A DNA stretch of 64,000 nucleotides from an uncultured Rivularia sp. Lineage in GTDB: Bacteria; Cyanobacteriota; Cyanobacteriia; Cyanobacteriales; Nostocaceae. Below the pieces are notes generated by a model that did not search any database, was not told the origin of the DNA, and saw only the letters and a list, made by a program, of their open reading frames with translations. This document shows, one piece after another, positions 13,455 through 16,366 of this stretch. The position numbers and the translations under genes were made by a program. Positions within the stretch are counted from its first letter, which is position 1. Each line of letters opens with the position of its first letter. The DNA is taken from the NCBI GenBank assembly GCA_963665115.1, contig OY762007.1, positions 5,280,001-5,344,000 on the forward strand, given 5' to 3'.

Positions 13455-14907
13455 ATGGATTTAGCTCGTCTTTCTACCGGAATTGTAGGCCTTGATAAAA
13501 TTCTTAACAGTGGTTTTATCCCAAAGCGAGCTTATTTAGTGCGTGGTGGACCTGGTTGCGGTAAAACAATTTTAGGATTGCATTTTTTGAGTGCTGGTAT
13601 TGCTAAAGACGAACCTAGTCTTTATATTACTTTGGGGGAACCAGCAGAACAAATTAAAGCCAATGGTGCAATTATTGGTTTTGATACTGAAGCAATGCAT
13701 TTCTTGGATTTAAGCCCTAGTGCGGACTTTTTTACCCAAATCCAAACTTATGATATTTTTTCACCTGCCGAAGTCGAACGTGAACCTACTACTCAAAGAA
13801 TTCTGGAGACTGTAGAATCACTCAAACCGAAACGTGTTTTGATTGATTCTATGACACACTTTCGCTATCTGTGTAGTGATGATTTTCAGTTTCGCAAGCA
13901 GGTGTTGTCGTTTATGCGTTTTTTATTGCAAACTGGCGCTACGGTAATGTTCACTTCTGAAAGTAGCCCGGAAGCTCCCGATGATGATTTACAGTTTATT
14001 AGTGACGGAGTAATTCACCTCGATAATTTCTCGGAAGGACGAAATATTCGGGTAACAAAGTTTCGCGGTTCTGATTTTCTTGCTGGTTTACATTCGCTAC
14101 GTATAACTTCAAAGGGAATGCAGGTTGCTCCTAGATTACAACCAGAAATTTTGAAACGAGAGTTTATTCTTGAAACAATTTCCTCTGGCGTACCGGAATT
14201 AGATGAATTACTGCATGGTGGTATCGAACGAGGAACTGTAACAATTTTAACTGGCCCTACGGGTGTAGGTAAAACGACTTTAGCACTCCAATTTATGAAA
14301 GAAGCGGCAGGAAGAGGTGAACGTTTCTGTCATTTATTCTTTTGAAGAAAGCGAAGAAACTTTATTAGCTCGCTCTAAAAGAGTGAATATTCCGGTTGAT
14401 GCAATGGTTAAAAATGGTGATTTATCGGTTGTTAGAGTAGAACCTTTACACCTTACTCACGACGAATTTGCCAATCAAGTGCGTTACGAAGTAGAAGAGA
14501 ATAAAGCTCGCATTGTGATGATTGACAGCGTTGCTGGCTACCGACTTGCAATACGCGGTGCGGATTTAGCAAGTCATTTACACGCCTTATGTAAGTATTT
14601 GCAAAATATGGGCGTGACAATAATTTTGGTTAACGAAACGGAGAATATTACAGGTAATTTCCGTGCGACTGAATTAGGCATTAGTTTTATTGCAGATAAT
14701 ATTATTTTCTTACGCTATTTAGAAATTGGCGGAAGAATGCAAAAAGCTATTGGCGTATTGAAAAAAAGATTGTCAAATTTTGAAAAGACGTTGCGGGAAA
14801 TAGAAATAACTCGTTACGGTATTAAAGTAGGTAAACCTTTAATTAATCTGCGAAAAATTCTTAGCGGTACGCCAGAGTGGGTAAAAAAAGATGATAGCAA
14901 TAAATGA
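13455..14907 (+). CDS. Double-domain KaiC/GvpD/RAD55-family ATPase, frameshifted by +1 at 14324-14326
   Basis: Two RecA-like domains with Walker A motifs GGPGCGKT and GPTGVGKT, Walker B motifs LIDS and MIDS, and KFRG / KKRLS. Removing one T from GAACGTTTC joins the two ORFs as ERSVIYSFEE. Confidence 0.85.
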
Positions 14908-15275
14908 CCCTCAAACCCTTAATTTTGATAGTGAATAGCAATGTTCGTAATTTAGAATTACTTAATCAATTTTTGAATCGGGAAGGATACCAAGCTATTA
15001 GTGTAAATGGTTTAGAAGAGTTCTATCGTGCTATGAGTCAACCGATTCAAATTAATTTAGGTTTGATAGATGTTACTGGTTTTGATAGCAGTATTTGGGA
15101 ATGCTGCGAAAAGTTGCAAAACCAAAAAATACCATTTTTAATTATTTCACCTCGCCAGAATGCTTTAATTCAAAATCAAAGTCTTGTTTGCGGCGCTAGG
15201 AATATATTGATTAAACCACTTGTAATTAAACAGTTATTTACTTTGATTAAAAGTTTGTTGCAGGATTCAGAATGA
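14904..15275 (+). CDS. Stand-alone receiver-domain protein (atypical acidic pocket)
   Basis: ILIVNSN, LGLID, LIIS, LIKP; ATGA overlap with the upstream stop codon. Confidence 0.8.
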   Translation: MTLKPLILIVNSNVRNLELLNQFLNREGYQAISVNGLEEFYRAMSQPIQINLGLIDVTGFDSSIWECCEKLQNQKIPFLIISPRQNALIQNQSLVCGARNILIKPLVIKQLFTLIKSLLQDSE

Positions 15276-16366
15276 GAAAAATTTTACTACTCCTAGAACA
15301 CAAGCAGAATAAAAATTTGCTCTCACAGTTATTACAACAAGCAGGCTACGAAGTTTTTTCCCCATCTGTCGATGATGATTTATTAAAATTGCATAATACT
15401 TTTGATTTGTGTATTGTTGGTCCTGTAGCTTTAGATAAATTTAGCGATTGGGTAGAAGCAACCAAAAAAGCAGAAGAACCTGTTTTTCTACCATTTCTTT
15501 TAATGACATCCCGGCAGGATGTAAAAATGATTACGCGACATCTATGGAAAATTATTGATGAATTGATTACTCTGCCCATAGAAAAAGTTGAATTGCGAGT
15601 ACGTATAGAAGCATTATTTCAGAAACGACAATTATCCTTAAATTTGAAAGCTGCTAACGATAATTTACAAAACCTCAACGAACTAAAAAGCCGTTTTATT
15701 TCAGTTGCATCCCATGAATTTCGCAATCCGCTACATATAATTGTAGCCTACGCGCAAATGCTTTATCGTGGAGGCGAAAAACTAACTTCAGATAAGAAAA
15801 AACAATTATTTACGCGCATTAAAGCATCTTCTAATAAAATGACTGAGACTTTAGATGATGTTTTAATCTTAACTAAAGGAGAATTGAGAGAGCAAAAGTG
15901 TAATTTACAACTTTTAGATTTACCAGAGCTTTGCAGTCAACTTGTCGCAGAAATGCAAATTGCTACTGCCACTCATCACGAAATTAATTTTACAATTCAA
16001 GGTGAATATACTTCATGTTATTTAGATGAAAACTTGATACGTCAGATTCTGACAAATTTGTTGAGTAATGCGATCAAATATTCGTCGTTAGATACGACTG
16101 TAGATTTTGATTTAATTTTTCAAGATGCAGAAATTATATTTAAAATAAAAGATAGTGGTATTGGTATTCCTGTTGAAGATCGATCTCAGTTATTTGAATC
16201 ATTCCGACGTGCTTCTAATGTTGGTGAAATTCCCGGTACTGGTTTGGGTTTAGCAATCGTCAAGCAATCGGTAGAGTTACACGGTGGTACGATTGCGGTT
16301 GATAGCGAAGTTGGTATTGGTACGACTTTTACCGTTGTTTTGCCGTTGAAGGAAGATAAGGATTAG
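15272..16366 (+). CDS. Histidine kinase with N-terminal pseudo-receiver domain
   Basis: H-box SHEFRNPL, N-box NLLSNAIKY, G1 DSGIGIP, G2 GTGLGL; ATGA overlap with the upstream gene. Confidence 0.9.
   Translation: MRKILLLLEHKQNKNLLSQLLQQAGYEVFSPSVDDDLLKLHNTFDLCIVGPVALDKFSDWVEATKKAEEPVFLPFLLMTSRQDVKMITRHLWKIIDELITLPIEKVELRVRIEALFQKRQLSLNLKAANDNLQNLNELKSRFISVASHEFRNPLHIIVAYAQMLYRGGEKLTSDKKKQLFTRIKASSNKMTETLDDVLILTKGELREQKCNLQLLDLPELCSQLVAEMQIATATHHEINFTIQGEYTSCYLDENLIRQILTNLLSNAIKYSSLDTTVDFDLIFQDAEIIFKIKDSGIGIPVEDRSQLFESFRRASNVGEIPGTGLGLAIVKQSVELHGGTIAVDSEVGIGTTFTVVLPLKEDKD

What the first reader, a model, noticed from the sequence alone, without database searches (positions are those of the whole stretch)
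13455..16366. Non-clock KaiC-like ATPase, receiver and pseudo-receiver kinase operon
Seen: three genes joined by ATGA overlaps, with no kaiA or kaiB nearby. The ATPase has two intact Walker A motifs. At the position matching the clock KaiC phosphosites (IST, S431/T432) it reads ISF, and it lacks the long KaiA-binding tail. The stand-alone receiver has NS in place of the acidic pair but keeps LID and KP. The kinase receiver has DLCIVG where the phospho-acceptor Asp is expected, and the kinase has no sensor or TM domain. Established: KaiC-like ATPases are proposed signalling hubs, mainly in archaea. Inference: the ATPase itself is the input (energy state or timer) and controls the kinase through degenerate receivers, a largely uncharacterised pathway beside the true clock.
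Basis: partly seen in the sequence, partly recalled or inferred. Interest (0 to 1): 0.7.

Follow-up and report, generated by a model that had tools for sequence, protein, structure and literature searches.

The report
Non-clock KaiC with pseudo-receiver kinase
This cyanobacterial operon encodes the counterpart of an already purified non-clock KaiC ATPase (LbKaiC2) next to a sensor-less kinase, whose degenerate receiver domain travels with the ATPase through cyanobacteria, Chloroflexota and salt-loving archaea and likely serves as its docking site.

Summary
The three genes and all quoted motifs are real. The frameshift is very likely an assembly error: two otherwise identical runs lack the extra T, and 38 of 183 orthologues in this assembly are also out of frame. 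The ATPase is the orthologue (63-68% identity) of Leptolyngbya LbKaiC2, published in 2024 as a slow, temperature-dependent, non-autophosphorylating oligomer encoded upstream of a kinase. KaiC-plus-kinase modules, and a receiver-like docking domain for a sister clade, were proposed in 2011, and binding was shown in Pseudomonas. New here: this pseudo-receiver is a family with no Pfam model of its own. It sits beside the ATPase in 19 of 19 cyanobacterial and 14 of 16 Chloroflexota carriers and in haloarchaea, fused to kinases, c-di-GMP enzymes, phosphatases and transcription factors. Binding and signal direction are untested. Earlier scan notes report similar cassettes in other genomes.

The parts
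13455..14907 (+). Double-domain KaiC-family ATPase, LbKaiC2 orthologue (483 aa in intact relatives; split by one extra base in this assembly)
   Evidence: Pfam PF06745 on both pieces; 63% and 68% identity of the two pieces to the locus bearing both LbkaiC2 primer sites; intact 483-aa frame in G007 and 12 other same-genus genomes
14324..14326 (+). TTT run holding the extra base; very likely an assembly error
   Evidence: Left out in runs X2, X3, X4, present in X1; the same G-TTT-C / G-AAA-C context recurs in 10 of 38 frame-broken orthologues
13545..13568 (+). CI Walker A, GGPGCGKT
   Evidence: sequence; K37 and T38 in 55 of 56 relatives
13704..13787 (+). Residues 84-111: segment at the place of the clock KaiC B loop, about 8 residues longer, highly conserved, predicted with low confidence; candidate docking site
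   Evidence: alignment to KaiC chains; invariant L84-P88, F92, F93, Y99, F102, V107, E108, P111; pLDDT under 50 at 94-109; B-loop sequence from PMC12208873
14253..14276 (+). CII Walker A, GPTGVGKT
   Evidence: sequence; K273 invariant
14683..14688 (+). Ser410-Phe411 at the clock S431/T432 position (family: Ser-Tyr)
14904..15275 (+). Stand-alone atypical receiver (Asp56, Ser82, Lys104 kept; acidic pair lost); accessory, found only inside this module
   Evidence: D56 and K104 in 37 of 37; 12 of 251 cyanobacterial genomes, each time directly before a pseudo-receiver gene; missing in 34 of 80 loci
15272..15661 (+). N-terminal pseudo-receiver of the kinase (res 1-130), ending in a long helix that runs into the DHp domain
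   Evidence: receiver fold, pLDDT 86.9, helix 105-135; best profile match PleD second receiver; no Pfam hit; 196 clusters at E<=1e-30
15662..16366 (+). Histidine kinase core, His148, HisKA + HATPase_c, no further sensor or membrane segment

Best explanation
The operon encodes the orthologue of the non-clock ATPase LbKaiC2, an accessory single-domain receiver and a sensor-less histidine kinase, and the ATPase ring likely binds the kinase's N-terminal pseudo-receiver and would thereby switch the kinase. Shown here: gene order, orthology, residues, purifying selection, and near-exclusive co-occurrence of the ATPase subfamily with this pseudo-receiver family across three phyla. Taken from the orthologue's published biochemistry: an oligomeric ring with very slow, temperature-dependent ATPase and no detected autokinase activity. 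Inferred steps: (1) the nucleotide state of the ring, set by ATP/ADP ratio or temperature rather than by a clock, would expose the extended B-loop-equivalent segment of CI; (2) this would bind the pseudo-receiver, which lacks the Lys needed for a normal phospho-switch; (3) the signal would pass along the alpha5 helix into the DHp domain; (4) the kinase would phosphorylate the small receiver (sink or modulator) or an unlinked regulator. The frameshift in the window is very likely an assembly error.
For: Orthology: the one locus among 401 genomes with the LbkaiC2 forward primer site also has the reverse site, gives a 486-aa protein with E69, E304-E305 and S417 as published, 65% identical to the intact relative's ATPase, followed after 3 bases by a kinase whose N-terminus scores 196 bits on the pseudo-receiver profile and which is 46% identical to the window kinase. 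Linkage: pseudo-receiver gene downstream in 75 of the 80 best loci, divergent in 1 more. Cyanobacterial phylum draw: 19 of 251 genomes have the ATPase at 600 bits or more and all 19 have the pseudo-receiver beside it; the 3 remaining genomes with a hit for either also hold diverged adjacent pairs. Chloroflexota draw: 14 of 16 ATPase carriers have it adjacent; 1 strong pseudo-receiver hit lacks an ATPase hit. Haloarchaeal plasmids: kaiC directly upstream of pseudo-receiver proteins in all 5 regions opened. The domain stays while outputs change: HisKA, HisKA_2/3, GGDEF, EAL, HD, SpoIIE, LuxR, BAT-HTH. Lys kept in only 9 of 151 rows. Precedent: KaiC binds its neighbouring kinase in P. protegens and P. 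putida (10.1101/2022.01.26.477890); the clock KaiC binds KaiB at the CI B loop (PMC12208873). Frameshift.
Against: No binding or activity was tested for this subfamily, here or in the papers read; co-occurrence of neighbouring genes does not give direction, and kin are not independent (9 of the 19 cyanobacterial carriers are one genus). The family keeps the phospho-acceptor Asp in 143 of 151 rows and Thr at the switch position in 123 of 151, which a pure docking module would not need. In P. putida the binding part was described as a PAS domain, not a receiver. The pseudo-receiver profile is no closer to the proteobacterial KaiC-linked N-terminal domain (HH probability 94) than to ordinary receivers (98), and their joint branch has support 62. 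Two Chloroflexota ATPase carriers gave no pseudo-receiver hit. Run X1 and genome G003 carry the same extra T. No shared downstream gene points to a function.
Confidence: 0.6

Rival explanations
1. The signal runs the other way or enters at the Asp. The pseudo-receiver (Asp kept in most of the family) or the small receiver is phosphorylated by some kinase, and the ATPase is the regulated output, or a scaffold or resetting factor that makes up for the missing Lys.
For: [quoted passage not shown]
Against: The window's lineage has replaced the Asp by Gly yet keeps the domain under purifying selection (dN/dS 0.13-0.25); many partner proteins are themselves outputs (EAL, GGDEF, SpoIIE, HTH), which places the domain on the input side.
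Confidence: 0.17
2. The small receiver and the pseudo-receiver form a split PleD-like REC1-REC2 stem: the phosphorylated small receiver binds the pseudo-receiver and switches the kinase, and the ATPase is only a modulator.
For: The best PDB profile match of the pseudo-receiver is the second, non-phosphorylated receiver of PleD; the small receiver always lies directly upstream of a pseudo-receiver gene (12 of 12).
Against: The small receiver is missing or eroded in 34 of 80 loci, deleted in 5 of 14 same-genus loci, and was not seen beside the haloarchaeal pairs, whereas the ATPase stays.
Confidence: 0.1
3. The ATPase is an hourglass timer or second oscillator whose slow Ser/Tyr autophosphorylation times the kinase, as proposed for SY-type KaiCs in 2011.
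For: Ser410 in 55 of 56 and Thr/Ser at the T426 place in 55 of 56; SY/TY-type P. protegens KaiC shows three phospho-states that change with culture age; hourglass proposal in PMC3164672.
Against: LbKaiC2 took up no 32P in 20 h, did not change with KaiA/KaiB over 72 h, and its ATPase is not temperature-compensated; no KaiA tail; the second site is Phe here.
Confidence: 0.07
4. The frameshift is real and the locus is decaying in this lineage.
For: X1 (depth 207) and G003 carry the extra T; the locus is patchy (14 of 24 same-genus genomes hold it whole); Tyr-to-Phe and Asp-to-Gly changes; receiver deletions in relatives.
Against: X2 and X3 are identical over 3 kb except for this base; 38 of 183 orthologues are frame-broken in this assembly, nearly all by net +1, including genes whose sequences read as polA, fabD and rnc (names recalled from the translations) and, separately, the clock kaiC; both ATPase halves have dN/dS 0.03-0.19.
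Confidence: 0.06

Closest known systems
LbKaiC2 (LBWT_17950) and its downstream histidine kinase LBWT_17960 of Leptolyngbya boryana (Matsukami et al. 2024, PMC11680916)
   Same: Orthologous ATPase (63-68% identity), single CI Glu, CII Glu-Glu, single Ser, no KaiA tail, kinase gene downstream with the same N-terminal domain (46% identity overall), separate kaiABC locus in the genome.
   Different: The window adds a stand-alone receiver between the genes, has Phe for Tyr after the Ser and Gly for Asp in the pseudo-receiver. The paper did not describe the kinase's N-terminal domain or test the pair.
'Dark-blue' kaiC (SY/TY/SF) + Nt_HK modules, Ramlibacter Rta_04330/Rta_04340 (De Luca et al. 2011, PMC3164672)
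   Same: kaiC directly followed by a kinase whose N-terminal domain resembles a receiver and was proposed as the KaiC-binding module; SY/SF sites. The paper also lists SY-type KaiCs of Nitrosococcus, Chloroflexus and Haloarcula as branching with this group, the likely home of the window's clade (inferred from taxa, sequences not compared).
   Different: Proteobacterial SY-type KaiCs (37-41% identical) form a sister clade with a different N-terminal consensus (no HMM hit to the window genome); that group was defined by lack of kaiB, whereas this genome has kaiB genes and a clock.
Pseudomonas KaiC-like groups I and III with histidine kinase and single-domain response regulator (Terrettaz et al. 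2022, 10.1101/2022.01.26.477890)
   Same: Same three-part inventory; group I has SY/TY; KaiC binds itself, the kinase and (P. putida) the receiver; linked to stationary phase and stress.
   Different: Pseudomonas sequences were not in hand, so orthology is untested; P. putida binds through a domain called PAS; those KaiCs are phosphorylated in vivo; the hosts lack kaiB.
Clock KaiC1 with SasA/CikA output
   Same: Double RecA-type fold, both Walker A motifs, about 30% identity; kinase controlled by an N-terminal adaptor (SasA, recalled).
   Different: No ST pair, no KaiA tail, one CI Glu, longer B-loop segment, no kaiA/kaiB linkage; far below the NCBIfam cut-offs.

Membership tests
LbKaiC2-type ATPase + downstream kinase | One catalytic Glu in CI, Glu-Glu in CII, single Ser at the phosphosite, no C-terminal extension | tested here: met
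   E62, E297-E298, S410 match E69, E304-E305, S417 at a constant offset of 7
LbKaiC2-type ATPase + downstream kinase | Sequence orthology of ATPase and of the downstream kinase | tested here: met
   63% and 68% for the two pieces, 883 bits on the subfamily profile; kinase 46%, N-terminal domain 196 bits
LbKaiC2-type ATPase + downstream kinase | Oligomer with slow, temperature-dependent ATPase and no autophosphorylation | not testable with these tools
   published for the orthologue only
Clock KaiC1 | Ser-Thr phosphosites, KaiA-binding tail, kaiAB linkage | tested here: not met
   SF; 10-residue tail; kaiA and kaiB elsewhere
Clock KaiC1 | TIGR02655 / PRK09302 score above cut-off (546 / 408) | tested here: not met
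   pieces score 107+79 and 169+102; far from clock KaiC in the tree
kaiC + Nt_HK (De Luca dark-blue group) / Pseudomonas group I | SY, TY or SF at the phosphosites and a kinase gene within the operon | tested here: met
kaiC + Nt_HK (De Luca dark-blue group) / Pseudomonas group I | No kaiB elsewhere in the genome | tested here: not met
   three strong kaiB-like hits
kaiC + Nt_HK (De Luca dark-blue group) / Pseudomonas group I | Kinase N-terminal domain of the RtaNt type | tested here: inconclusive
   Stand-ins from Rhizobium, Paraburkholderia, Bradyrhizobium and homologues: colinear alignment, HH probability 2 (narrow profiles) to 94 (broad), not above ordinary receivers; joint branch support 62. 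Ramlibacter and Pseudomonas sequences not in hand
kaiC + Nt_HK (De Luca dark-blue group) / Pseudomonas group I | Physical KaiC-kinase binding | not tested
Aspartate-less receiver (ALR) | Receiver fold without the phospho-acceptor Asp | tested here: met
   Met for the window protein (G50; fold), not for its family (Asp in 143 of 151)
Canonical single-domain response regulator (small receiver) | Phospho-Asp, Thr/Ser and Lys | tested here: met
   D56, S82, K104
Canonical single-domain response regulator (small receiver) | Acidic pair after beta1 that binds Mg | tested here: not met
   N11-S12 here; Asp at the first place in 15 of 37, no acid at the second in any; Pfam 27.9 bits, under the 30.2 cut-off

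The most novel reading that the evidence does not exclude
The pseudo-receiver is a dedicated KaiC-docking input domain. It takes the place of a sensor and plugs one cytoplasmic KaiC ring into many outputs (kinases, c-di-GMP cyclases and phosphodiesterases, PP2C phosphatases, LuxR and Bat-type transcription factors), in cis and in trans, in bacteria and haloarchaea alike. Extra copies away from the ATPase (a second copy in all 9 genomes of one genus, four copies in G059) were found only in genomes that have the ATPase. The ring would read nucleotide state or temperature through a conserved, partner-folded B-loop extension, a general KaiB-free way for KaiC to signal and possibly the state from which the clock arose.
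Probability: 0.4. Interest if true: 0.72.

Novelty: new member of a known kind. Interest (0 to 1): 0.44.

Why it matters
What the many non-clock KaiC proteins do is an open question. The one cyanobacterial member purified so far, LbKaiC2, was tested alone and with clock KaiA/KaiB and left as 'unknown function'. The survey here names its probable partner: a 130-residue pseudo-receiver at the front of the adjacent kinase, and a candidate binding segment on the ATPase. The window-type kinase is the minimal form (pseudo-receiver straight into DHp-CA, no PAS or GAF, Asp already lost), so it is a clean test system. The locus itself is not a new kind of system. A practical point: frameshifts in this assembly should not be read as biology.

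Tried and rejected
Complex prediction of ATPase with pseudo-receiver: tool not available, no result either way. Expression: no RNA holder listed. A second read comparison over the clock locus returned nothing, so the clock kaiC break was judged only against relatives. Promoter scan: 11 sites against 12.1 expected, no terminator-like site on + right after the kinase; uninformative. Neighbourhood clustering of 740 ORFs: beyond the module only genus-level synteny (peptide deformylase, recJ-like and others), no shared cargo or cognate transcription factor. Genome-wide GTTTC/GTTC ratio (0.41 against 0.39 in G009) too blunt to show the error. Atlas look-up: generic receiver clusters at 0.91-0.92, no added information. 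Common origin with the proteobacterial N-terminal domain: not shown, not rejected; the 'canonical' control set included the window's own small receiver, a flaw of that control. The KaiC tree is the quick search only, with long branches for G046, G090 and Hpe2. Makarova et al. 2017 is not held, and the LbKaiC2 supplement could not be read; either may already mention this domain, as may Fig. S6 of PMC3164672, of which only the legend was seen. Rejected: programmed frameshift (no support; intact frame in relatives and in X2-X4); second clock with KaiB; 'trio' as the unit; Asp loss as a family trait. Earlier scan notes by sequence and by place gave nothing.
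Full report
Observation. The window is from a cyanobacterium whose closest relatives are titled Rivularia and Calothrix. The three genes, both ATGA overlaps, both Walker A motifs, ISF, the short tail, NS/LID/KP and DLCIVG are as described. Pfam gives KaiC ATPase for both pieces of the first gene, a sub-cut-off receiver for the second, and HisKA plus HATPase_c for the third, with nothing on its first 130 residues. 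The genome holds a separate kaiA-kaiB-kaiC locus and a second kaiB-kaiC locus.

The frameshift. There is one extra T at 14324-14326. Of four runs laid, X1 has it; X2 and X3 are identical over 3,001 bases except that they lack it; X4, a diverged strain, lacks it. All four come from one study, and any may be the source. Against this, G003 (98% identical) has the same extra base while G007 (97%) is intact. To see whether the assembly is error-prone I compared 214 ORFs of 200 residues or more from 400 kb of G009 with the genome: 183 had full-length orthologues and 38 were flagged as out of frame or stopped, most by a net +1 (a few are terminal or alignment artefacts). Ten share the G-TTT-C or G-AAA-C context of this site, and they include sequences that read as polA, fabD and rnc (names recalled). 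The clock kaiC is also broken by +1 in this assembly and intact in G003, G007 and G009. Both ATPase halves, the receiver and the kinase have dN/dS of 0.03-0.31 against four relatives. I put the assembly-error reading at about 0.93.

What the ATPase is. Matsukami et al. 2024 (PMC11680916; abstract, results, discussion and start of methods read; supplement unreadable) purified LbKaiC2 from Leptolyngbya boryana: E69 alone in CI, E304-E305, S417 alone, no tail, a pentamer or hexamer, ATPase about a third of clock KaiC and threefold higher at 35 than at 25 C, no autophosphorylation, and a kinase gene 3 bases downstream. Their forward primer site occurs in 1 of 401 genomes searched. That locus has the reverse site too, the published residue numbers and the 3-base gap; its ATPase is 63% and 68% identical to the window's two pieces, and its kinase is 46% identical to the window kinase with the same N-terminal domain. 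The window is therefore an LbKaiC2-type locus. In a quick tree of 35 proteins the subfamily groups with Chloroflexota and haloarchaeal proteins (support 92), next to proteobacterial SY-type KaiCs and far from clock KaiC.

What is conserved. Of 255 relatives found, the best 80 were kept. A pseudo-receiver gene lies downstream in 75 of 80, divergently in 1, and was not seen in 4 (one at a contig end); the small receiver scores over 60 bits in 44 of 80, and 34 loci have the pair without it. In the genus, 14 of 24 genomes hold the locus whole, and in 5 of the 14 the small receiver is deleted. In an even draw of 251 cyanobacterial-phylum genomes, 19 carry the ATPase at 600 bits or more, and all 19 have the pseudo-receiver beside it; G046, G090 and G041 carry diverged adjacent pairs; the other 229 gave neither at the thresholds used. 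Nine of the 19 are one genus, so these are not 19 independent cases. The small receiver family occurs in 12 of the 251, always inside the module. In 251 Chloroflexota genomes, 16 have the ATPase over 750 bits and 14 of them the adjacent domain; one strong domain hit has no ATPase hit; three weak hits (about 60 bits) and two weaker KaiCs (about 400 bits) were set aside. On plasmids, the domain was found in 19 records, 16 haloarchaeal and 3 Acaryochloris; in the five haloarchaeal regions opened, a kaiC lies directly upstream of such a protein. So the pair is the core and the small receiver an accessory.

The pseudo-receiver. It folds as a receiver ending in a 30-residue helix (pLDDT 86.9); its best PDB profile match is the second receiver of PleD. 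A profile search found 196 clusters at E<=1e-30 and 837 at 1e-10, the latter probably including ordinary receivers. In 151 aligned rows from the best 150 proteins, the phospho-acceptor place is Asp in 143, the switch Thr in 123, the Lys in only 9. So the family's defect is the Lys and the second acid; Gly50 is a trait of the window's clade. Pfam on those 150 proteins gave HATPase_c 95, HisKA 85, HisKA_3 18, SpoIIE 3, HisKA_2 3, GGDEF 2, HD 2, EAL 1, LuxR 1, often with PAS or GAF between; a haloarchaeal member carries GAF-BAT-HTH, and in G051 the ATPase is followed by a pseudo-receiver-EAL protein. Neighbourhoods of the 150 are unknown. Extra copies away from the ATPase occur in nine genomes of one genus and in G059.

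The ATPase surface. Residues 84-111 align with the clock B loop, the KaiB-binding element (PMC12208873 passages). They are about 8 residues longer, hold 12 invariant positions among 56 sequences, and residues 94-109 are predicted with pLDDT under 50. A conserved but unstructured loop is what a partner-folded binding site looks like; this is inference.

Mechanism. Most likely (0.6) the slow ring binds the pseudo-receiver in one nucleotide state and switches the kinase through the alpha5-DHp helix, with the small receiver as sink, substrate or modulator. The input would be energy state or temperature rather than time of day, given the orthologue's biochemistry. None of these steps was shown. Rivals: signal entering at the Asp or running toward the ATPase (0.17), a split PleD-like receiver pair (0.10), an hourglass (0.07), decay (0.06).

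What is in print. De Luca et al. 2011 (PMC3164672; section 17 and figure legends read) described kaiC (SY, TY, SF) followed by a kinase with a receiver-like N-terminal domain, proposed it as the KaiC-binding module and as an hourglass, and noted SY-type KaiCs in Nitrosococcus, Chloroflexus and Haloarcula. Terrettaz et al. 2022 (parts 1, 2, 4, 5, 6 of 7 read) showed KaiC-kinase-receiver modules and binding in Pseudomonas. A review (PMC8069551, passages) covers M. extorquens kaiC2-kaiR2. Galperin et al. 2018 (passages) note diverged N-terminal receivers in Bat-like proteins. Schmelling et al. 2017 (passages) added nothing specific. In eight searches I found no description of this pseudo-receiver family or of its tie to LbKaiC2-type ATPases; the library lacks most subscription papers and Makarova et al. 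2017. Whether the proteobacterial N-terminal domain is the same family is unresolved. The lead to De Luca's section came from an earlier scan note and was checked here.

Verdict. A real, conserved module and a new member of a published kind. The added value is the identification of a widespread, output-flexible pseudo-receiver as the likely partner of an ATPase that has already been purified without one. Interest 0.44.

Noticed in passing
G000 whole assembly (sample: orthologues of 400 kb of G009): 38 of 183 orthologues are out of frame or stopped, mostly by +1 in short runs (G-TTT-C, GGGG, CCCC); the clock kaiC is among the broken genes. Frameshift or pseudogene findings in this genome are suspect.
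   Followed up: yes
G000:C1:2512861-2517871 (L022): Second kai locus: 290-aa receiver plus helical protein, kaiB, kaiC, hybrid kinase; looks like kaiA3-kaiB3-kaiC3 (recalled, not tested). Its kaiC is broken at the same place in G000, G003 and G007 and intact in G009.
   Followed up: partly
window 16385-16500: About 110-base repeated element just after the kinase, with several copies in this genome and in relatives and a GC-rich hairpin at 16418-16437.
   Followed up: no
window 16511-17125 (-): Small membrane-anchored ORF with a weak DUF1542 match; the short tandem repeat at its start (YSLFPIP units) varies in number between strains.
   Followed up: no
window 8569-11010 (-): RecJ-like gene (recalled from sequence) with an in-frame Glu-Ala and Pro-Ser-Thr repeat insert near residues 405-455.
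   Followed up: no
window 19942-21132 (+): 396-aa ORF that reads like an IS200/IS605 TnpB (recalled, not scanned).
   Followed up: no
L127:38-2906 (G051): The ATPase is followed by a pseudo-receiver-EAL phosphodiesterase instead of a kinase.
   Followed up: partly
L069:1161-3807 and L133:3207-5949: In these loci the pseudo-receiver kinase is transcribed divergently from the ATPase rather than downstream.
   Followed up: no
L132:3989-7592, L134-L136: Proteobacterial SY-type kaiC genes are followed by kinases with another degenerate receiver (consensus APxGRDA...TEEAL...QPxWSDxP...LERP), found in 221 plasmid records.
   Followed up: partly
L129:5472-8023 and L131:6016-9383: Some haloarchaeal kaiC genes are followed by two tandem pseudo-receiver kinases.
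   Followed up: no
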